A DNA stretch of 59,985 nucleotides from Escherichia phage vB_EcoS_OddieOddie. A program made the translations under genes and the position numbers. Location of the stretch: the sequence record OL539454.1; one strand, written 5' to 3'. The notes under the pieces were generated by a model that was given only the letters and a program-made list of their open reading frames with translations, had not been told where the DNA came from and did no database searches. Positions 15,154-59,965 of the stretch are shown here, in pieces. Numbering within the stretch: the first letter of the stretch is position 1; every line of letters starts with the position of its first letter.

Positions 15154-18100
15154 TGCCACCAGCAATAATTGGAGCAGCGATAGCTTTAGGTGCGTCGGCG
15201 GCTGCTGCGGCTAGTATTATTTCGGCAACTACCGCTCTCGTTATCGGTATTGCTGCAACTGCGGCAGGTGCTCTTTTAACTAAGACACCAAATATGAACT
15301 TTGATGCTTACAAGGGGCAGCAAGAGCGTAAACAGGTTCTGCGTGCGGCTACAGCGTCACGTTCTGTTGTATATGGCACGACCGTAGCGTCCGGACTATT
15401 AGCATTTGCGGAGGAAGAAGCTGGAGATCAAGATGAAGGTGAATGGATGCATCTTGTTGTTGTTCTTGCTAGTCATAAATTGGAAGGTATTGAAACGATT
15501 TGGTTGGGTGATGACGGAATTGATTGGTTTGGTGAAAACGCTACTTGGGAGTTTCATAACGACCGTCAGACTGTTGACCCATTCATGTTAAGACATTGTC
15601 CTTCCTGGAAGGAGGATATGATTGGCAAGGGTATTGCATGGCTACGTTTAAGCTTAAAGTTTGATGCTGAAAAATTCCCATCCGGTTTGCCAAACGTCAA
15701 GGTGTTGAAAAAGGGACGTAGAGTCTATGACCCTCGTTCCGGTCAAACTGTCTTTAGCGATAACGCTGCTCTTGTTATTCTTGATTATTTCCGCACGTAT
15801 TTAAAGCGCAAGGACGAGAATATTAACTGGGACCAATTCAAGGAAGCTGCTAACATCTGCGATGAGTTTGTTACTAACGCAGATAGCACTACGGAGAGAC
15901 GCTACCGCATTAACGGTGAGTTTGAAGTGGATGAAGCACCTGCCAAAATCCTTGATGCTATGCTTGAAGCTTGCGGTGGGGAACTAACCTATATTGGCGG
16001 CAAACACGGTCTGTTAGTTGGTGCTTATTACGGTCCAGCTACCATGACTTTGGACGAAAGCTGCATTGCTGGGGATATTAAAATTATCCCTGAAACATCT
16101 TATAAAGAGCGCACCAATACCATTACAGGTACATTTGTCGACCCGAAGCAAACATACGCTGAAGCAGATTTTCCTCCAGTTGTGGTTAAGGAATGGGTGG
16201 AAAAAGATGGCGGCGAAATAACACAAGACATGGATTTCCGCTTTGTTACAAGTGAATATCAAGCTCAACGTCTTGCTAATATTATTTTACGTCGTAAGCG
16301 TGTTGGTCGAACAATTGAAGTGCCGTGTAACATGAAGGGGTATAAATTCCGCCCGGGCATGTATGTCGACGTGTCAATTTCAAATATTGGAATGAAAAAT
16401 GTTGAGATGCGCGTTACTAAATGGTCATTCGATCCTAAAGGTGGAATTAATCTTGTCCTTCGTCAAGACTTCCTGGAAATGTGGGACGATGCTATTGGTA
16501 AACCAATGGAGCGTCCGGATCTGGTAGACCTTCCGTCTGGTGCTATTGCTCAACCGCAAAACCTTCAGTATCAGGTATTGCAGATCAGCGATGTTGTGCA
16601 AGGTGTTTTAACATGGAGCAATATTGGACAGGTAGCGTATAACCGCGTAGCCGTGCGACAGGGAGGTACAACGGTTTGGACCGCACAAGTCCCTGGCCAA
16701 AACGTTCGCGTTACTGGGTTGCTGCGGGGCGCGTATACAGCGCATGTTCAAGCGGTAGCTTATAGCGGGGCAATATCGCCTGAAGCATATCTGGAATTTA
16801 ATATTCAGGCTCCGCCGCCACCAACATCTATTGAAGTACAACAGGGTTACTTTGCTATAAACCTGATCCCTAAATCTGCGGACATTGCAAACGTTAGCAC
16901 GCAGTATGATTTCTGGACTTCCGGTGAAACAAGATTGTCATCTGTGTCTACAGACGTTGTTGAGCGTGAAGCAACTCGTAAAGGTATGGGCACAACCTGG
17001 ACTTCGGAAGGTTTGAAAAATGACCACACTTATTACTGGTATGTGCGCACCATTAACGCTTTCGGATCATCTGCATTTGTAGAAGTAGCTGCATTGTGCT
17101 TTACAACAGCTACAGATTTGATGCCACAAATTGATTCTGAATTCAAGAAGACGGAGACTTATAAAGAGCTCACTACTGAAATCACAGGTGTTAAAGATGG
17201 AGTTACTCAGCTTAGCCAAACTGTAGTAGAAACTGAACAGCGTTTAAGTCAAAGCGTTAGCAATGTTCAACAAAGCGTTATCACTTTAGATGGTGTTGTT
17301 CAGGATCAGGGCGTTACCATTAATGAACAAGGACAGCTCATCGATGCACAGGGTAAGTTGATTGACACTCAAGGTAAGACTATTGAAACGGTTAGCGCGA
17401 CCGTGCAGGAGACAAGTAAAGCAGTTGTAGATCTGGAAGGTAATGTTAACGCTCAATGGGGTGCTAAAGTACAGGTAGATGGTAAAGGGCAAAAATACGT
17501 TGCTGGTATCCAGTTAGGTATGGAAGGGTCCGGTGGAGCTGTTCAGTCTTACTTCATGGTAAGCGCTAACAACTTTGCTATCTATAACCCGACAAATAGC
17601 GTAGCAGAACTAGCATTTGCTGTTAAGAACGGTCAAGTGTTCATGAAGGCTGCGTTTATTGAAAATGGTACTATTGACAGCGCTAAAATTTCAAATCAAA
17701 TTCAGTCAACAAACTACGCAAGCAATAGCGCGGGTTGGATGATTAACAAGAATGGTAGCGCTCAGTTTAACAACGTAACGATAAGGGGTACGGTATACGC
17801 CAACAACGGGTCTTTCACAGGTACAGTCAACGCCACAAGCGGTAAATTCAAGGGTACTGTGGAAGCTACCAGTTTTGTGGGTGATGTTGCGAATATGTGT
17901 GTCATTGCTGAGTCTGCAATACCAAACACACAAACTACAAGTTCAAGAACCTGGACAAAAACTTTCAAAGACTCATCCGGTTCAACATTATCTAAAGACT
18001 TTGTGTTGTTATTAAGTTATAGTTTAACTGCATATACATCAAATCAGGCAAGTCGTATAATTGTGACTGCTAACATAGGTGGAACATCAATTACAAGGAG

Positions 18101-18275
18101 GATTGAGCGAGCTGCCAATGGACCTGCGATGGATGTAACCATACCTTTAGCAGTGAAAGGAAAGACAGCGTCGAGCGTAACAATAAGCGTTAAGGAGGAG
18201 TATACGAACGTCTATGGGAGCTACTTGCGTCCGTCTGTAATATTAATGACTCGCGGAACTGGTAGTTGGTCGTAA
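15141..18275 (+). CDS. tail tip / host specificity protein (lambda J-like)
   Basis: 1044-aa ORF after minor tail genes; Ala/Gly-rich hydrophobic N-terminus, beta-rich middle, T/S/N-rich C-terminal region. Confidence 0.6.
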   Translation: MEGLMPPAIIGAAIALGASAAAAASIISATTALVIGIAATAAGALLTKTPNMNFDAYKGQQERKQVLRAATASRSVVYGTTVASGLLAFAEEEAGDQDEGEWMHLVVVLASHKLEGIETIWLGDDGIDWFGENATWEFHNDRQTVDPFMLRHCPSWKEDMIGKGIAWLRLSLKFDAEKFPSGLPNVKVLKKGRRVYDPRSGQTVFSDNAALVILDYFRTYLKRKDENINWDQFKEAANICDEFVTNADSTTERRYRINGEFEVDEAPAKILDAMLEACGGELTYIGGKHGLLVGAYYGPATMTLDESCIAGDIKIIPETSYKERTNTITGTFVDPKQTYAEADFPPVVVKEWVEKDGGEITQDMDFRFVTSEYQAQRLANIILRRKRVGRTIEVPCNMKGYKFRPGMYVDVSISNIGMKNVEMRVTKWSFDPKGGINLVLRQDFLEMWDDAIGKPMERPDLVDLPSGAIAQPQNLQYQVLQISDVVQGVLTWSNIGQVAYNRVAVRQGGTTVWTAQVPGQNVRVTGLLRGAYTAHVQAVAYSGAISPEAYLEFNIQAPPPPTSIEVQQGYFAINLIPKSADIANVSTQYDFWTSGETRLSSVSTDVVEREATRKGMGTTWTSEGLKNDHTYYWYVRTINAFGSSAFVEVAALCFTTATDLMPQIDSEFKKTETYKELTTEITGVKDGVTQLSQTVVETEQRLSQSVSNVQQSVITLDGVVQDQGVTINEQGQLIDAQGKLIDTQGKTIETVSATVQETSKAVVDLEGNVNAQWGAKVQVDGKGQKYVAGIQLGMEGSGGAVQSYFMVSANNFAIYNPTNSVAELAFAVKNGQVFMKAAFIENGTIDSAKISNQIQSTNYASNSAGWMINKNGSAQFNNVTIRGTVYANNGSFTGTVNATSGKFKGTVEATSFVGDVANMCVIAESAIPNTQTTSSRTWTKTFKDSSGSTLSKDFVLLLSYSLTAYTSNQASRIIVTANIGGTSITRRIERAANGPAMDVTIPLAVKGKTASSVTISVKEEYTNVYGSYLRPSVILMTRGTGSWS

Positions 18276-18282
18276 TAAATAA

Positions 18283-18310
18283 TTAACCCCTCAAACGAGG
18301 GGTTAATTTT
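18283..18310. terminator. bidirectional terminator between convergent genes
   Basis: TTAACCCCTC-AAAC-GAGGGGTTAA 10-bp stem with TTTT downstream and A-run upstream. Confidence 0.6.
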
Positions 18311-18543
18311 CAATAATCAATCACACAGTTTGAAGGTGAGCCAATTCGTCGGTATTCATGATCAATCTCATGGCACCATTGCCCAGTCATTGGAAGCTTT
18401 TCGGTATCATAAATCAAAGAACCGTTACCATCACGATCTAACGGTTTTGGAATAACGCCGGAATTAGGTTTACCAGTATTTAAACCGTTACCACATGCAG
18501 TGAGGGATAAAGTTAATGCCAGCATAGTTAAAGCGCGTTTCAT
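18310..18543 (-). CDS. small lipoprotein (candidate superinfection-exclusion factor)
   Basis: 77-aa minus-strand ORF inside the plus-strand tail module; N-terminal signal peptide with lipobox-like LTAC, then G/N/D-rich mature part. Confidence 0.55.
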   Translation of the reverse strand: MKRALTMLALTLSLTACGNGLNTGKPNSGVIPKPLDRDGNGSLIYDTEKLPMTGQWCHEIDHEYRRIGSPSNCVIDY

Positions 18544-18613
18544 TGGGCCTCCTTTGTGTTGTTGTCAAGGTTCAATTCTAATATACTTGTTGTGTTGAGT
18601 AAGTCAAATAAAT

Positions 18614-21600
18614 GTGGGAGATATTATGGCAACTCGTTTACGTGGTACTTTAGTTGATGGTTTAAATAAACCAATTGTCAACGCTACAGTTGCACTTTTA
18701 GCGAAAGGGAATAGCTTATTGGTATTGTCCGGTAGTGAAGCTATCTTTAAAACAAGCGCAACCGGAACATATGATATTACAGTCCAAACAGGCTATTACA
18801 AGGTTATTATCGGTCCGCAAGGTAGCGAGCCTTATAAAGCTGGTGAAATTGCTATTTACGCGGACAGTAAAGAAGGTACGCTCAATAACTATTTAACTTC
18901 CTGGGCACCGGAAGAGCTAACTCCGGAAGTCATTGCACAGGTTAAAGATTTAGTTTCACAAGCTGAGACAGCTAAGAATGCTTCTGCTACATCTGCAACT
19001 AAATCCGAGCAAGAACGCGTTAAAGCAGAGACTGCGGCTCAGAATGCTGTAAACACTGCTAACGGTATGAAAGCTTCTATTGGTTTGACTACTGCACCAA
19101 GACATGTTGCAGATATTACAGTCAACCCGTCATCATTCTTGGGTTTTATACGGATTTTACGGTCTAGTACAGTAGGTTATCCGGATATTGCGTCCTCAGA
19201 AAACGTATTAGCCGGTTTTGTTTCCGCTATGGATGGAACCCCTGGATTTATAGGTGTTTTTGTTGGAGACATGACCGGGACTATATATAGCTATAGATGG
19301 ATCAAGGACGTTGGCGTTACATGGTGGAAGCAGGTTAACTATTCTACTGTCAACAGATATACCCAGCTAAACGCAGAAACTAATTTTACAAACCAATTAG
19401 GTAATGCAAAACTCCTCATAGATAATAATAAAGTTTGGGGGGCATATGACAATGAAAATAAACGCTTCATACCTCTAGCAATAGCTCAAGGTGGTACAGG
19501 GGCGCTCACAGACGCGGATGCTCGTACAAACTTAAGACTTGGTTCTAACGATACACCTCAATTCAGAAACCTTAATCTTGTTACAGTAGCAGACTCCGCA
19601 CAAGCGCCTTCCGGCATTGTGAGCGGTTATTTAAATAATAGCTCTGGAGTTCAAAGATGTCGCTACCGCATATATTCTGAAATAAGAGGCGACAATAAAG
19701 CGTGGTTAACCTTACACCTTCAATCAGACACAGCAACAAATAAATATGCTGGTCTAAGCGTTGATGGTAATTTTCAAATCAATGGAAATTTTATTGGTAA
19801 TGCTTTGCAGTTGTCAGACGCTCCAAATTCCAGGATTAATCTACAGTTAGATCGTTTTTATCAAAGTGCTAACGAAACGGTTATTTATACTCCGTCTCGT
19901 CAAGCATATATGACAATTTCTAATAACAAGACTTGGGGCGCTTATGACGCGGAAGCTCAAAACTTCATTCCTTTACCTATTAATAGGGGAGGGACTGGTG
20001 CCCTAACAATATCCGACGCTAAGACTAATCTTCAAATTCCGTCTGTAGGTGGGGGTGATTGGTTAACTTATAACGCTCCTCCTGGCGTGGAAGCTGGAAA
20101 GTATTATCCAGTTATCATCGATATGGCATACAGTTCTTTATATGCTTCTGGTGCTTTTATAGATATAAAGACACGTTCTGCCGCTGGTGACGACCCAATG
20201 AACTGTTGCACTTTTAACGGATTTATTAGATGTGGTGGTTGGAGCGACCGAAAAGACGGCGGTTATGGTTACTTCAACAACTATGCAAAAAATGAAATTG
20301 CTATGAAATGTATTCTTTCTTCATCTAAAGATGCGGAAAGATACGTTGCAATATATGTTGAAGGTCGTGGTTTCCCTCTTCAATTGCGTGTCCCTGCATT
20401 CTGTGAAGTAACAGTACCAACATCAAACTTTACTTATAAAAATACGACCTATGCGTGGGGTACAGCTAACCCTGCAACGGATTCTGTAGCTATAAACACC
20501 TTATTTGATTTTTCATTAAACCGCGTTGGTTTTTACCAGGCCACGACAGAAGGTAATTATTATATCGGAAATGGGGAACGTATTGTTTTATCTAACGGAA
20601 TGTCTGTGGGCGAAGAGTTAAGTCTAACCACACCTAAAGTGTCTTTCAGTGGAACCATTGCTGCTGGTAACGGTGTCATTGCAGATGGAACATCTGTATC
20701 CAATGCTACTTTTTATAGTCGTTATCGTGTTGGTGACGTGATATATGACAGCGAGTTTCGCGCAAGTGAAAATGCTGGTCAAATTATAGTCCGCGATCCA
20801 ACGGGTGGGACTGCGCATCAATTCTTTAACTTCAATCTCAACGGGACATTCAGCGCTCCCGCTGGTTTGCTATCTTCTACTGGAGTAGATTGGAACGGTC
20901 AGATTAATACCGTCAATAAATTCTATGGGATTGCTGGACAAGTTAACACACCAGAAAACAATGTGGTTTATGGTGGTATACATGTTGGATTCAGCGGCAA
21001 CTATGCTTTCCAGATATGCGGAAGGAAAGGTAAATCCTTCTTCCGCACATTTGAAGCAGGAGTAGAAGGACAATGGCAACAATTAGTAACTAAAGGGAAC
21101 TACGGAGTTGGTCTAATTGGAACTTTTAAACCGGAAGATGGTTCAAGTGGTTTTTACACTGATTCCGATGGGGCAAATACTTGGTCGCCCGCTAACGGAG
21201 GGGGTTTTCAATCTTCGTATACTCAGCAGCGAATATTCCAATTTTGGATGACATCAAGCTCGCAGGGGTTTATTCGTTTTAACGATAGCGGTAACGCTCA
21301 AGCTTCTAAGACGGATAAACCTTGGACAACACTTCAAGCAGCTGGCACATCGGATATTAATTTCAAGCGTGTTCACGGAGTGATGGATACAGATGTTGCA
21401 TTGGATAACATAAGCAAGCTTGAATTTGTATACTTTAACTATCTGTCCGATGGTCCAGAGCGTGAAATCCGTAGGGGTGTCATTGCTCAACAGGCCCAGG
21501 AAGTTGATCCTGAATATGTGCATAGTGCTGAAACATCCGGGAAAATGACTTTGGATTCTAACCCATTGTTATTGGATGCATTAGCTGCAATACAATCCCT

Positions 21601-21712
21601 CAAGAAAAAGGATCAAGATAATAAAGACCGTATTAGTAAACTTGAAACTGAAGTTGAGGAACTTAAGACGTTAGTTGCTACGCTTGTTAATAAAGAGCAA
21701 CCATTACCATAA
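18614..21712 (+). CDS. tail fibre protein with C-terminal intramolecular chaperone-like domain
   Basis: 1032-aa ORF; two internal copies of a WGAYD...FIPL...GGTGALT...A(R/K)TNL motif; C-terminus has SDINFKR ... GVIAQQAQEVDPEYV followed by coiled coil. Confidence 0.65.
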   Translation: MGDIMATRLRGTLVDGLNKPIVNATVALLAKGNSLLVLSGSEAIFKTSATGTYDITVQTGYYKVIIGPQGSEPYKAGEIAIYADSKEGTLNNYLTSWAPEELTPEVIAQVKDLVSQAETAKNASATSATKSEQERVKAETAAQNAVNTANGMKASIGLTTAPRHVADITVNPSSFLGFIRILRSSTVGYPDIASSENVLAGFVSAMDGTPGFIGVFVGDMTGTIYSYRWIKDVGVTWWKQVNYSTVNRYTQLNAETNFTNQLGNAKLLIDNNKVWGAYDNENKRFIPLAIAQGGTGALTDADARTNLRLGSNDTPQFRNLNLVTVADSAQAPSGIVSGYLNNSSGVQRCRYRIYSEIRGDNKAWLTLHLQSDTATNKYAGLSVDGNFQINGNFIGNALQLSDAPNSRINLQLDRFYQSANETVIYTPSRQAYMTISNNKTWGAYDAEAQNFIPLPINRGGTGALTISDAKTNLQIPSVGGGDWLTYNAPPGVEAGKYYPVIIDMAYSSLYASGAFIDIKTRSAAGDDPMNCCTFNGFIRCGGWSDRKDGGYGYFNNYAKNEIAMKCILSSSKDAERYVAIYVEGRGFPLQLRVPAFCEVTVPTSNFTYKNTTYAWGTANPATDSVAINTLFDFSLNRVGFYQATTEGNYYIGNGERIVLSNGMSVGEELSLTTPKVSFSGTIAAGNGVIADGTSVSNATFYSRYRVGDVIYDSEFRASENAGQIIVRDPTGGTAHQFFNFNLNGTFSAPAGLLSSTGVDWNGQINTVNKFYGIAGQVNTPENNVVYGGIHVGFSGNYAFQICGRKGKSFFRTFEAGVEGQWQQLVTKGNYGVGLIGTFKPEDGSSGFYTDSDGANTWSPANGGGFQSSYTQQRIFQFWMTSSSQGFIRFNDSGNAQASKTDKPWTTLQAAGTSDINFKRVHGVMDTDVALDNISKLEFVYFNYLSDGPEREIRRGVIAQQAQEVDPEYVHSAETSGKMTLDSNPLLLDALAAIQSLKKKDQDNKDRISKLETEVEELKTLVATLVNKEQPLP

Positions 21713-53993: not shown

Positions 53994-54244
53994 TGTGCGA
54001 CTCCAGTGCAAGCGCTACACCCAGCACCTCCAGCAATGTGGTTACAGAGGTAAATGCAATGCGATTAGGTCCATATCGCGGCTATTATGGTCGTGCTGCA
54101 TGGAATGACGCTACTCAACGTTTTGAAGGCTGGATTATCTGCCCGGAACGTGTTAAATTTCACTCCGTAAAAGAGAAAAATATCGTTCTTAATTTTCAAA
54201 AATGTGTCACTAAATATGTAGAGGAGCAAGAAGAATGCGTGTAG
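53994..54244 (+). CDS. hypothetical early protein
   Basis: ATG with SD GGAGG at 53994; upstream part of longest ORF lies in repeat block. Confidence 0.4.
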
Positions 54245-54531
54245 AAGAGATTGTTGAAGGTAAAGAGTATCGTTTGCTGACTGACATTGGTGGTGTTGGG
54301 TATACTCCGGATGGTGCAGCTTGTTTTAATGTCTTACCGCAAGCGGCAATTGTCACAGTTAATAAGGTTGTGACAAATTTATACACTACTTCGCCTGACG
54401 GCAATTGGCCACATGCGGTTATTGTCACCTTCGGTAAAGATGGCTATGTTGACCTTGAAGATGACGAAAATGACGCTTATGAAGTAAGTTATACCGGGCT
54501 TGTAAGTCCTAATTTCCTGGAGGAAGTATAA
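54235..54531 (+). CDS. hypothetical early protein
   Basis: 98-aa ORF, start overlaps upstream stop. Confidence 0.45.
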   Translation: MRVEEIVEGKEYRLLTDIGGVGYTPDGAACFNVLPQAAIVTVNKVVTNLYTTSPDGNWPHAVIVTFGKDGYVDLEDDENDAYEVSYTGLVSPNFLEEV

Positions 54532-58967: not shown

Positions 58968-59345
58968 ATGGGGCGTCAGCCCCTTTTTATTGGAGGGAAC
59001 ATGTTCAACTCATCGAACGAACATTGGGCAGTTCTAGCGGGGTTTGCGCTGATCTCCCTCATTGGGGGAGCTCTCGGTTACGTCATGCGTACAATTGACG
59101 CTGGTAAGAAGGTACGGATAAGCATTGCATGTCTTGAAGGTTTATCCGCCGCGTTCTTTGGCGTTATAATGTACGCGATCTACAGGGAGTTTAATATCAG
59201 CCTTTGGTTCGCTTTTGGCCTTGCTGGCCTATTCGCTTGGGCGGGTTCACGTGCTACGCTAAAAGCTCTAAAGTCGCTTCTAGCATCGCGGACAGGGATC
59301 AAACTCGACTCAGAGGACTGCAAACATGAAAATGATTCTAAATAA
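58968..59345 (+). CDS. holin-like membrane protein
   Basis: 125-aa ORF with about three hydrophobic helices and charged C-terminus. Confidence 0.45.
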   Translation: MGRQPLFIGGNMFNSSNEHWAVLAGFALISLIGGALGYVMRTIDAGKKVRISIACLEGLSAAFFGVIMYAIYREFNISLWFAFGLAGLFAWAGSRATLKALKSLLASRTGIKLDSEDCKHENDSK

Positions 59346-59802
59346 CTTCTTCAGTTTTATAAAAGCTAAGCCCCGTCTGTTTATCGAGTACCTGATGATC
59401 GGCGCGGTTGTGTTTTTATGCGGAGTGGCTGCTTACCTGTGGTCACAAAACGAGCTTAACAAATCAAATTTAAGCTTAGCTGAAGAACGTTTAACCGTTG
59501 TGGAGAAGGACAATGCTAAGCTGGGCGAAGCTGTTGTATTTCTTGCTGCACAAAGGGAGAAAGATACGGACTCTTTCAAGAAACTAACTTCTGCAATTCA
59601 GAACGAACAACATAACCACAAGTTGCTTCAGGACAAGTTGCAGACACTGGAGAAAAGCAATGCCGACGTCAAAGCTTATCTTAACGAGCGTATTCCTGAT
59701 GATTTGCGCAGGTTGCTCGACGCAGACTCAACCTCCTCCAGCCCCACAGATAGTGAAGGTAAGACTACCCGCACATCTACTGGTGGAATGTCGGGAAGTT
59801 GA
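59326..59802 (+). CDS. inner-membrane spanin (Rz-like)
   Basis: 158-aa ORF; N-terminal transmembrane helix followed by coiled-coil periplasmic region. Confidence 0.5.
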   Translation: MKMILNNFFSFIKAKPRLFIEYLMIGAVVFLCGVAAYLWSQNELNKSNLSLAEERLTVVEKDNAKLGEAVVFLAAQREKDTDSFKKLTSAIQNEQHNHKLLQDKLQTLEKSNADVKAYLNERIPDDLRRLLDADSTSSSPTDSEGKTTRTSTGGMSGS

Positions 59803-59965
59803 GAAAATTCCTTTGGTTTACACAAGAGATATTATCCGACGTTTACAGGATACAGAAACTGCTCTGACTGAATGTAAGCTAAGGGTTAAGGAAATCATAC
59901 GCTATGAAGCTGAAAATGTTTCGCTTGATTTTGTAGGATCAAGCAATTATATTCAGCCTAAATAG
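59660..59965 (+). CDS. outer-membrane lipoprotein spanin (Rz1-like), overlapping the Rz-like gene in another frame
   Basis: 101-aa ORF; signal peptide with lipobox-like ICAGC followed by proline-rich PPPAPQ. Confidence 0.5.
   Translation: MPTSKLILTSVFLMICAGCSTQTQPPPAPQIVKVRLPAHLLVECREVEKIPLVYTRDIIRRLQDTETALTECKLRVKEIIRYEAENVSLDFVGSSNYIQPK

What the first reader, a model, noticed from the sequence alone, without database searches (positions are those of the whole stretch)
18310..18543. Antisense lipoprotein gene wedged between the tail tip and tail fibre genes
It is the only minus-strand gene in the 24-kb late arm, and it has a signal peptide with a lipobox-like LTAC. In T5-like and T1-like phages a lipoprotein encoded next to the receptor-binding gene blocks the phage receptor to give superinfection exclusion. 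This is a strong positional analogue.
Basis: partly seen in the sequence, partly recalled or inferred. Interest (0 to 1): 0.65.

Follow-up and report, generated by a model that had tools for sequence, protein, structure and literature searches.

The report
Phage lipoprotein that masks the LamB receptor
This small backwards-facing gene in a virulent E. coli phage (genus Seuratvirus) encodes an outer-membrane lipoprotein whose relative in another phage has been shown to stop LamB-using phages from infecting, so it is a real but ordinary member of a known kind of phage self-protection gene.

Summary
Window 18310-18543 (-) is a real 77-codon gene with a strong ribosome-binding site, a signal peptide, the lipobox LTAC (Cys17) and a hairpin terminator. 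It is the only minus-strand gene in the ~24-kb structural arm, between the J-like tail tip gene and the lateral tail fibre gene. The window is an almost complete Seuratvirus genome, about 97% identical to phage WildeMaa at this locus.

The mature protein is not homologous to T1 Cor or T5 Llp. It belongs to a small separate family (PHROG 12984) that includes gp116 (Lpp010) of the temperate phage mEp010. Plasmid-expressed Lpp010 excludes the LamB-dependent phages mEp010, mEp044, mEp554 and lambda (PMC11893012). The same convergent J/lipoprotein arrangement recurs in 28 loci from several phage groups.

Among 25 BASEL small siphoviruses, the four LamB users carry the gene and the 21 others do not. 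The receptor-binding part is therefore the C-terminus of the upstream J protein, and the likely target is LamB, not FhuA.

Direct LamB binding, the site of binding and early expression are inferred, not shown. The AlphaFold models were too weak to use. Verdict: new member of a known kind; modest interest.

The parts
18310..18543 (-). Coding sequence of the 77-aa lipoprotein precursor, stop codon included. The signal peptide is aa 1-16 (nt 18543-18496). The mature 61-aa protein is aa 17-77 (nt 18495-18313).
   Evidence: PHROG 12984 at E 2e-54. dN/dS median 0.064. Family alignment with 20 invariant columns.
18493..18504 (-). Lipobox L14-T15-A16-C17. Cys17 is the predicted lipidated first residue of the mature protein. 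Gly18 at +2 predicts sorting to the outer membrane.
   Evidence: Read directly from the sequence. The Cys is invariant in the alignment. 26 of 29 family clusters pass a PROSITE-type lipoprotein rule. The +2 residue is G, A, S or T across the family, never Asp.
18548..18554 (-). Ribosome-binding site AAGGAGG, 4 nt upstream of the ATG.
   Evidence: An RBS is annotated at the same place in the phage Seurat record.
18580..18607 (-). Predicted sigma-70-type promoter: TTGACT (18607-18602), 16-nt spacer, TATATT (18585-18580). The predicted transcript start is near 18573.
   Evidence: Consensus scan, 10 of 12 matches. The sequence is kept in Seuratvirus and in lambdoid-tail prophage copies, with the -10 hexamer unchanged. 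This is a prediction only; the region held 4 promoter-like sites against 2.6 expected by chance. No such site was found upstream of the mEp010 or EP23 homologues.
18271..18308 (-). Hairpin terminator (12-bp stem, loop GTTT, then ATTTATTACG). It fills the 34-nt gap between the convergent stop codons of the lipoprotein gene and J. It is also a hairpin on the + strand, but with a poorer T-run there.
   Evidence: RNA fold -18.2 kcal/mol, z -4.15. The Seurat record annotates it as a 'bidirectional terminator between end of gene and end of apparent moron'. An equivalent hairpin sits in a 28-34-nt gap in 28 related loci.
17690..18275 (+). Distal C-terminal part of the J-like tail tip protein (whole gene 15141/15153-18275). 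This is the likely LamB-binding domain, 'type I', ending ...TRGTGSWS. It travels with the lipoprotein cassette.
   Evidence: Pfam and PHROG J matches. Homology to the LptD-using relative VogelGryff breaks between 17690 and 18626. Prophage locus L008 shares only 17760-18684 with the window. The last 130 aa are nearly identical to those of LamB-dependent WildeMaa. GpJ distal domains are linked to LamB targeting in 10.64898/2026.04.02.716166.
18626..21712 (+). Lateral (side) tail fibre gene. Its conserved 5' end forms the other border of the exchangeable cassette. It is context, not part of the exclusion function.
   Evidence: Pfam phage_tail_N and Peptidase_S74. Start taken from the WildeMaa annotation. 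Homology with other phage groups ends at about 18684.

Best explanation
Proposed function. The gene encodes a receptor-masking (superinfection exclusion, or 'lytic conversion') lipoprotein directed at the maltoporin LamB. LamB is the terminal receptor that the C-terminal domain of the adjacent J-like tail tip protein recognises.

Proposed course of events.
1. After DNA entry, host RNA polymerase transcribes the gene from its own sigma-70-type promoter, against the direction of the late operon. Transcription stops at the hairpin shared with J. (Inferred.)
2. The precursor is exported. It is lipidated at Cys17 and cleaved by signal peptidase II. Because residue +2 is Gly, it is sorted by Lol to the outer membrane. 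(Inferred from sequence rules.)
3. Cys57 and Cys73 form a disulfide. (Inferred from their invariance.)
4. A variable tether of about 10 residues lets the conserved core (PNSGVIP...DTEKLPMTGQWC...RRIGSPSNC) reach LamB, most likely from the periplasmic side. There it changes or occludes the surface that J binds.
5. LamB-dependent phages then fail to adsorb or inject. Progeny are not wasted on infected cells, lysed-cell debris or vesicles.

What is shown: only the exclusion phenotype, and only for the homologue Lpp010 of phage mEp010.
For: 1. Homology to a tested protein. The protein is 57% identical over its full length to mEp010_116 (gp116, Lpp010), and 73% identical over residues 26-77. Plasmid-borne Lpp010 excludes the LamB-dependent phages mEp010, mEp044, mEp554 and lambda. 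A different lipoprotein type excludes the OmpA-dependent phages (PMC11893012).

2. Lambda's J C-terminus has little or no similarity to these J C-termini (Fig S6 legend), yet lambda is excluded. This points to the shared receptor as the target.

3. Association with receptor use. Of 25 BASEL small siphoviruses, the four LamB users (Bas21-24) are exactly the four with a tblastn hit. The 21 users of FhuA, BtuB, LptD, YncD or TolC have none. The naive Fisher p is 7.9e-5. All four mEp phages that carry the gene need LamB.

4. Swap with receptor. The LptD-using Seuratvirus VogelGryff has a shorter J and a different antisense gene in the same slot. Its homology to the window breaks exactly at 17690-18626.

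5. Conserved synteny. In 28 loci the gene is convergent with a J gene at a 28-34-nt gap holding a hairpin. These loci come from Seuratvirus, Nonagvirus 9g, Dhillonvirus EP23, lambdoid-tail prophages and the mEpimmI group.

6. Independence from RBD type. Two unrelated-looking J C-terminal types occur with the family, and both have LamB-dependent members (type I WildeMaa; type II KurtStettler and mEp010). All four combinations of lipoprotein subtype and J type exist. This is what a receptor-directed protein would show, and not what an RBD-directed one would show.

7. Real lipoprotein gene under strong purifying selection.

8. Precedents for small periplasmic exclusion factors that act on the phage's own outer-membrane receptor: Llp on FhuA (PMC9586334) and the Rtp factor on LptD (cited).
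Against: No experiment exists on this protein or on any Seuratvirus copy.

Even for Lpp010 only plating was tested. Binding to LamB, loss of adsorption and lipidation are not shown.

Lpp010 did not exclude LamB-dependent mEp013, so protection is not complete for every LamB binder. All four tested mEp phages have the type II J C-terminus. The window has type I, and no phage with type I has been tested against a lipoprotein of this family.

The receptor association in BASEL is phylogenetically clustered, because all four carriers are Seuratvirus.

The promoter is only a consensus match, and none was found upstream of the mEp010 or EP23 copies.

The AlphaFold2 models were unusable (pLDDT 61 and 51). 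There is therefore no structural support, and the side of LamB that is contacted is a guess by analogy.
Confidence: 0.82

Rival explanations
1. The lipoprotein excludes phages after adsorption. It would block a later step of DNA delivery in the periplasm (for example the tape-measure or ejection-protein channel, or access to an inner-membrane entry factor) rather than masking LamB.
For: PMC11893012 leaves open whether its lipoproteins 'interfere with DNA ejection ... or block the host receptor'. Adsorption was not measured. mEp013 escapes although it uses LamB.
Against: The gene tracks LamB-type J C-termini across phage groups with unrelated tails. It is replaced together with the J distal domain when the receptor changes. 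Its outer-membrane sorting signal (Gly at +2) places it at the receptor's membrane. Lambda, whose tail proteins are not related, is excluded.
Confidence: 0.1
2. It is a lysogenic-conversion or 'moron' lipoprotein with a host-directed role unrelated to phage exclusion, like lambda Bor (serum resistance), or some other envelope modification.
For: It has moron-like anatomy: a possible own promoter, a terminator, and lower G+C (0.39-0.41 against 0.445 for the genome). Copies occur in E. coli and Salmonella prophages.
Against: It is kept under strong purifying selection in strictly virulent Seuratvirus, Nonagvirus and Dhillonvirus phages. The homologue gives exclusion when expressed alone. There is no similarity to any Pfam, NCBIfam or PADLOC family beyond the signal peptide.
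Confidence: 0.04
3. It is the outer-membrane spanin (Rz1-like) of the phage's lysis system.
For: It is a small outer-membrane lipoprotein. There is a weak PHROG match to 'Rz-like spanin' (E 0.009), confined to residues 1-32.
Against: The window has its own complete lysis cassette 40 kb away: a holin at 58968-59345, an Rz-like i-spanin at 59326-59802, and an overlapping proline-rich Rz1-like o-spanin at 59660-59965. The weak PHROG match covers only the signal peptide.
Confidence: 0.01
4. It is not a functional gene but a chance ORF on the antisense strand of an intergenic spacer.
For: It is short (77 codons) and is annotated only as 'hypothetical protein' in many records.
Against: dN/dS is 0.064, and 20 columns are invariant across sequences down to 52% identity. 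It has an RBS and a lipobox, and its position is conserved in 28 loci.
Confidence: 0.01

Closest known systems
Lpp010 (gp116, type-C lipoprotein) of the temperate phage mEp010 and its mEpimmI relatives (PMC11893012)
   Same: Homologous: 57% identity overall and 73% over the conserved core. It shares the lipobox, the two extra cysteines and the PNSGVIP / DTEKLP.TGQWC / RRIGSPSNC motifs. The position is the same: convergent with J behind a shared terminator and before a tail fibre gene. Its phages use LamB.
   Different: Here the host phage is a virulent Seuratvirus, so the benefit is lytic conversion and protection of progeny rather than prophage immunity. The tether differs (GNGLNTGK against AVDKEAALHNL). 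The adjacent J C-terminus is of the other type (type I against type II). The upstream region is unrelated, and a consensus promoter is found only here.
Llp of phage T5 (lytic conversion lipoprotein; FhuA-Llp crystal structure, PMC9586334)
   Same: Same kind of device. It has a 77-aa precursor and a 61-aa mature outer-membrane lipoprotein with two further cysteines. It has its own promoter, lies next to the receptor-binding gene and is carried by a virulent siphovirus. It inactivates the phage's own receptor.
   Different: No sequence similarity beyond the signal peptide. Llp acts on the plug of a TonB-dependent transporter, and LamB has no plug, so the mechanism cannot be the same in detail. 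The cysteine spacing differs: a 16-residue loop here, against a loop spanning most of Llp.
Cor of phages T1, phi80, N15 and HK022 (FhuA-directed exclusion lipoprotein)
   Same: T1 cor is a 75-aa lipoprotein gene. It lies on the opposite strand to the tail genes, directly behind a terminator that follows the J and RBP genes. The layout is the same as here.
   Different: The mature parts do not align. Cor's target is FhuA. In T1 a separate receptor-binding locus lies between J and cor, whereas here the J C-terminus itself is the binder.
Superinfection exclusion factor of phage Rtp, which binds the periplasmic face of LptD (cited in 10.64898/2026.04.02.716166)
   Same: It is encoded in the same exchangeable slot downstream of J in small siphoviruses, and it acts on the phage's own receptor from the periplasm.
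   Different: Different protein and different receptor. It was not compared here because I did not retrieve its sequence.

Membership tests
Lpp010-type LamB-phage exclusion lipoproteins (PHROG 12984) | Sequence homology across the mature domain | tested here: met
   PHROG 12984 at E 2e-54 over 1-77 of 77. 73% identity to mEp010 gp116 over aa 26-77. 20 invariant columns in a 26-sequence alignment.
Lpp010-type LamB-phage exclusion lipoproteins (PHROG 12984) | Signal peptide with a lipobox Cys and a non-Asp +2 residue (outer-membrane lipoprotein) | tested here: met
   LTAC with Cys17 and Gly18. A PROSITE-type rule is met here and in 26 of 29 clusters. Lipidation itself is not shown.
Lpp010-type LamB-phage exclusion lipoproteins (PHROG 12984) | Gene convergent with the J (central tail fibre) gene, separated only by a hairpin terminator | tested here: met
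   34-nt gap in the window, and 28-34 nt in 28 loci. mEp010 shows the same arrangement.
Lpp010-type LamB-phage exclusion lipoproteins (PHROG 12984) | The carrier phage uses LamB as its terminal receptor | tested here: inconclusive
   The window phage itself is untyped. Its closest relatives carrying the same J C-terminus and lipoprotein (WildeMaa, SeppeHuegi, GottfriedDienst) are LamB-dependent in BASEL table S5.
Lpp010-type LamB-phage exclusion lipoproteins (PHROG 12984) | Expression alone excludes LamB-dependent phages | not testable with these tools
   Shown only for Lpp010 (PMC11893012).
Cor/Llp family (T1 Cor, T5 Llp; FhuA-directed) | Sequence or profile similarity of the mature domain | tested here: not met
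   hhalign of the family profile against T1 Cor and against T5 Llp aligns only residues 1-21 or 1-23, the signal peptide and lipobox. There is no PDB sequence hit, although Llp structures are in the PDB.
Cor/Llp family (T1 Cor, T5 Llp; FhuA-directed) | Small outer-membrane lipoprotein encoded next to the receptor-binding gene as a separate transcription unit | tested here: met
   This is a functional resemblance, not evidence of membership.
Cor/Llp family (T1 Cor, T5 Llp; FhuA-directed) | Acts on FhuA (the plug of a TonB-dependent transporter) | not testable with these tools
   Indirect evidence points to LamB instead.
Rz1-type o-spanins | Encoded within, overlapping or next to the i-spanin gene in the lysis cassette, with a proline-rich mature part | tested here: not met
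   The window's spanin pair is at 59326-59965. This gene is 40 kb away, and its PHROG spanin match covers only the signal peptide.
Morons (independent promoter-gene-terminator units inserted in a phage operon) | Own terminator and own promoter, and horizontal mobility independent of the flanking genes | tested here: inconclusive
   Terminator present. The promoter is only a consensus match. Prophage loci L009-L013 share only window 18276-18684 at 87%, which shows the unit moves. The Seurat record calls it an 'apparent moron'.

The most novel reading that the evidence does not exclude
This family may inactivate a plug-less trimeric porin from the periplasm, by a mechanism unlike the plug-jamming that Llp uses on FhuA. 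For example, the disulfide-stapled core might thread into or cap the LamB barrel and reshape the external loops that very different J domains bind. A natural non-lipidated periplasmic variant (L035/L036) hints that the lipid anchor is dispensable. Blocking LamB could also cost the cell its maltodextrin uptake. None of this is excluded by my evidence, and none of it is shown.
Probability: 0.35. Interest if true: 0.6.

Novelty: new member of a known kind. Interest (0 to 1): 0.33.

Why it matters
The finding gives a function to a gene that is still labelled 'hypothetical protein' or just 'lipoprotein' in Seuratvirus, Nonagvirus and Dhillonvirus genomes. Together with the J C-terminus, the gene is a compact genomic marker for LamB use, which helps to predict phage receptors from sequence.

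For phage cocktails it predicts cross-exclusion among LamB-dependent phages, including lambda.

The family is also a tractable case for asking how a 61-residue lipoprotein can disable a porin that has no plug. The T5 Llp-FhuA structure does not answer that question.

Tried and rejected
- AlphaFold2 on the precursor with 25 homologues gave pLDDT 61 and pTM 0.35. The mature domain with 26 sequences gave pLDDT 51. Both models are too weak, so I ran no fold searches; their matches would be meaningless.
- A PDB sequence search with the mature protein found nothing at E up to 10.
- Pfam, NCBIfam and PADLOC gave only sub-threshold matches to the signal peptide, or nothing.
- An exhaustive profile search of 1.84 billion representative proteins found only 3 family clusters. 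It also gave a weak (E 1.6e-6) multi-repeat match to a 4467-aa repeat protein, which I regard as a repeat-summed chance resemblance.
- I tested whether lipoprotein subtype co-varies with J C-terminal type, as an RBD-specific factor would. It does not: all four combinations exist.
- I looked for a consensus promoter upstream of the mEp010 and EP23 homologues and found none. The 'own promoter' claim therefore holds only as a prediction for the Seuratvirus/prophage allele.
- The o-spanin reading was rejected after I found the real spanin pair.
- No paper in the library names the Seuratvirus gene as an exclusion factor.

Full report
**What the window is.** The 59,985-bp window is an almost complete genome of a virulent E. 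coli siphovirus of the genus Seuratvirus (subfamily Queuovirinae). Region 17800-19100 is 97.3% identical to phage WildeMaa (Bas23), and 90-97% identical to KS_A8, SeppeHuegi, Seurat, slur01, CAjan and others. The first 25 kb are 93-97% identical to several Seuratvirus genomes, so the phage is a new isolate rather than a copy of a deposited one. Genes 1 to about 23.8 kb are the + strand structural arm, running from terminase to tail fibres.

**The observation.** The ORF at 18310-18543 (-) encodes MKRALTMLALTLSLTAC|GNGLNTGKPNSGVIPKPLDRDGNGSLIYDTEKLPMTGQWCHEIDHEYRRIGSPSNCVIDY.
- AAGGAGG lies 4 nt before the ATG.
- The N-terminus has every feature of a bacterial lipoprotein signal peptide, with the lipobox LTAC and Cys17.
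- A PROSITE-style lipoprotein rule matched 8 of 1620 candidate starts in all six frames. This is the only match in an intergenic gap with an RBS.
- The stop codon is followed at once by a 12-bp GC-rich hairpin and a T-run. The hairpin fills the 34-nt gap to the stop codon of the convergent J-like tail tip gene.
- The Seurat record annotates the same hairpin as a 'bidirectional terminator between end of gene and end of apparent moron'.
- All other minus-strand ORFs in the late arm lie inside larger + strand genes. In WildeMaa this is the only minus-strand CDS among genes 0001-0026.

**It is a real, selected gene.**
- It matches PHROG 12984 ('lipoprotein') end to end at E 2e-54.
- A search of 5.8 billion proteins returned 29 clusters.
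- An exhaustive profile search of 1.84 billion representatives returned only three 50%-identity clusters, so the family is small and confined to phages of enterobacteria.
- In a 26-sequence alignment reaching down to 52% identity, 20 columns are invariant. They include the lipid Cys, PNSGV, TGQWC and N-C near the C-terminus.
- Across 24 distinct coding sequences the median dN/dS of the mature part is 0.064. Against L008 there are 0 non-synonymous and 11 synonymous differences; against L009 there are 3.2 and 19.8.

**What it is related to.** A tblastn search of 50,697 phage genomes found the gene in 43 records:
- Seuratvirus
- Nonagvirus 9g
- Dhillonvirus (EP23, HH3, Maverick, PNS1)
- an Enterobacter phage and a Salmonella phage
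- the temperate phages mEp010, mEp013, mEp044 and mEp554

The mEp010 hit is locus tag mEp010_116. It lies between 'host specificity protein J' plus a terminator on one side and a tail fibre gene on the other. gp116 is the 'type-C lipoprotein' Lpp010 of Front Microbiol 2025 (PMC11893012). Expressed from a plasmid, Lpp010 excluded mEp010, mEp044, mEp554 and lambda. A different lipoprotein type, Lpp021, excluded the OmpA-dependent phages mEp021 and mEp515. The four mEp phages that carry the type-C gene need LamB. The window protein is 57% identical to Lpp010 overall and 73% identical over residues 26-77. The difference lies mainly in the signal peptide and in the first ten or so mature residues.

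**It is not a Cor or Llp homologue.** I took T1 Cor from the T1 record. There cor is also antisense and lies right behind a terminator after the J/RBP genes. I confirmed the T5 Llp sequence against the T5 records. Profile comparison of the family with either protein aligns only the signal peptide and lipobox, residues 1-21 or 1-23. The mature protein has no sequence match in the PDB. There is no Pfam, NCBIfam or PADLOC family beyond signal-peptide noise. The resemblance to Cor and Llp is therefore one of design: a mature outer-membrane lipoprotein of about 60 residues with two extra cysteines, in its own transcription unit, next to the receptor-binding gene. It is not one of descent.

**Which receptor.** The BASEL table S5 lists the terminal receptors of 25 small siphoviruses.
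- Exactly four use LamB: GottfriedDienst, KurtStettler, WildeMaa and SeppeHuegi. Exactly these four appear among the tblastn hits.
- The 21 phages that use FhuA, BtuB, LptD, YncD or TolC do not appear. The naive Fisher p is 7.9e-5. It is inflated, because all four carriers are Seuratvirus.
- The fifth BASEL Seuratvirus, VogelGryff, uses LptD. It has a shorter J (879 aa) and a different antisense 321-aa gene in the same slot.
- Its DNA homology to the window stops at 17690 and resumes at 18626. The J distal domain and the lipoprotein cassette are thus replaced together.
- A 2026 preprint likewise links distal GpJ domains to LamB targeting. It notes that lambda J's C-terminus shares little or no homology with them.

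The likely target is LamB.

**Anatomy of the module across phages.** IMG/VR gave 31 more loci.
- In 28 loci overall, the lipoprotein gene is convergent with a J gene of 1029-1707 aa. The gap is 28-34 nt and always holds a GC-rich hairpin.
- The carriers have unrelated tails: Seuratvirus, Dhillonvirus, the mEpimmI group, and lambdoid-tail prophages such as one at ssrA in E. coli MS 115-1.
- Prophage loci L009-L013 share only window 18276-18684 with the window, at 87% identity. That stretch is the terminator, the gene, the upstream region and the first 60 nt of the side fibre gene.
- L008 shares 17760-18684, which also takes in the J distal domain.
- The cassette is therefore a mobile module, bordered by the conserved end of J and the conserved start of the side fibre gene.
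- Only 7 of 5426 complete E. coli genomes hold a close copy.

**Receptor-directed rather than RBD-directed.** Two different J C-termini go with the family.
- Type I ends ...TRGTGSWS. It is found in the window, WildeMaa, EP23 and some mEp-like phages.
- Type II ends ...S(R/H)GSGSF(S/T)G. It is found in mEp010, 013, 044 and 554, KurtStettler, 9g and the lambdoid-tail prophages.
- Both types include experimentally LamB-dependent phages.
- All four combinations of lipoprotein subtype (GNGLNTGK tether or AVDKEAALHNL tether) and J type occur.

Together with the exclusion of lambda, this fits a protein that acts on the common receptor.

One caveat matters here. Lpp010 did not exclude mEp013, although mEp013 also has a type II J and needs LamB. 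Some J variants therefore tolerate whatever the lipoprotein does. No phage with the window's type I J has been tested.

**Likely mechanism.** The steps below are marked as inferred or shown.
- A sigma-70-like promoter (TTGACT, 16 nt, TATATT; 18607-18580) lies 26 nt upstream of the RBS and points against the late operon. This would allow early expression by host polymerase, as for T5 llp. It is only a consensus match: the 900-nt region held 4 such sites against 2.6 expected. It is kept in the Seuratvirus and prophage alleles, but the simple scan found none in the mEp010 or EP23 upstream regions. Inferred.
- Export, lipidation at Cys17 and Lol sorting to the outer membrane follow from the lipobox and from a +2 residue that is G, A, S or T across the family, never Asp. 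Inferred from established sorting rules.
- The invariant Cys57 and Cys73 probably form a disulfide. Inferred.
- The mature protein is 6.7 kDa and hydrophilic. It is 38% Gly, Pro, Asn and Asp. That fits the very low AlphaFold confidence, and it suggests a peptide that takes shape on its target.
- Binding to the periplasmic side of LamB is proposed by analogy with Llp-FhuA (PMC9586334) and with the Rtp factor on LptD. Llp works through the FhuA plug, and LamB has no plug, so the details must differ.
- For a virulent phage the main pay-off is probably to protect progeny from infected cells and debris, as argued for Cor and Llp.

**Rivals.**
- A block after adsorption is not excluded, because adsorption was never measured. 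It fits the receptor-linked distribution less well.
- A Bor-like host-directed moron does not explain the gene's conservation in virulent phages or the exclusion phenotype of the homologue.
- The o-spanin reading fails. The window has its own holin, Rz-like i-spanin and overlapping Rz1-like o-spanin at 58968-59965.
- A chance ORF is ruled out by the selection pattern.

**Verdict.** It is a new, untested member of a small, recently characterised family of exclusion lipoproteins directed against LamB-using phages. It is an analogue of Cor and Llp but unrelated to them. The general idea that this slot holds cognate exclusion genes is already stated in the BASEL papers, so a specialist would not be surprised. 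The open question is how the protein disables a plug-less porin.

Noticed in passing
L035:3020-3238 and L036:3607-3825 (IMG/VR contigs of about 28 kb): A 72-aa relative has a signal-peptidase-I-type leader (...NAFA|NTNE) instead of a lipobox. It is not next to a J gene and lies about 3 kb upstream of terminase genes, among unknown small genes. It may be a soluble periplasmic version of the same factor.
   Followed up: partly
P0021 (E. coli chromosomes, 29 contigs); L033:749-988 and L034:4992-5231: These look like decaying prophage copies. P0021 is frameshifted after residue 54. The L033 and L034 copies have Cys73 replaced by Arg and lack an ATG start.
   Followed up: no
window 58968-59965: The lysis cassette sits at the right end of the window: a holin (58968-59345), an Rz-like i-spanin (59326-59802) and an overlapping, out-of-frame, proline-rich Rz1-like o-spanin (59660-59965). 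The spanins are not annotated in the Seurat record.
   Followed up: partly
window 54210-54386 (-): A 58-aa GTG-start ORF (MYKFVTTLLTVTIAAC...) also passes the lipoprotein rule. It overlaps a + strand ORF (54235-54531), so it is probably a shadow ORF.
   Followed up: no
window 18281-18308, compared with L006, L008 and L009: The loop of the shared terminator hairpin is flipped between close relatives (cgtttg against caaacg on the same strand) while the stem is kept. It looks as if the palindrome had been inverted or exchanged at the module border.
   Followed up: no
L004:3328-4293 (VogelGryff, MZ501110 17827-18792): The LptD-using Seuratvirus has a shorter J (879 aa) and a single antisense 321-aa gene in the slot that the lipoprotein occupies here. 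I did not check whether a small exclusion gene is hidden there.
   Followed up: no
window 18276-18320, + strand: On the late (+) strand the same hairpin is followed by a poorer T-run (TTTTCAAT, partly inside the stem), and the scan did not call it a terminator. This would let late transcription read through into the lateral fibre gene, and it would produce RNA antisense to the lipoprotein mRNA late in infection.
   Followed up: no
P0031 (4467-aa metagenomic repeat protein): Nine repeats of the form TDANGDITSVTVPGEGTWTVDP give a summed weak match (E 1.6e-6) to profile positions 34-64 of the family. This is probably a chance or beta-hairpin-motif resemblance.
   Followed up: no
NC_005859 (T5 RefSeq record), 110429-110659: T5 llp is labelled 'Cor superinfection exclusion protein' in RefSeq. 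Annotation pipelines thus already merge Cor and Llp, whereas the family studied here is left as 'lipoprotein' or 'hypothetical protein'.
   Followed up: no
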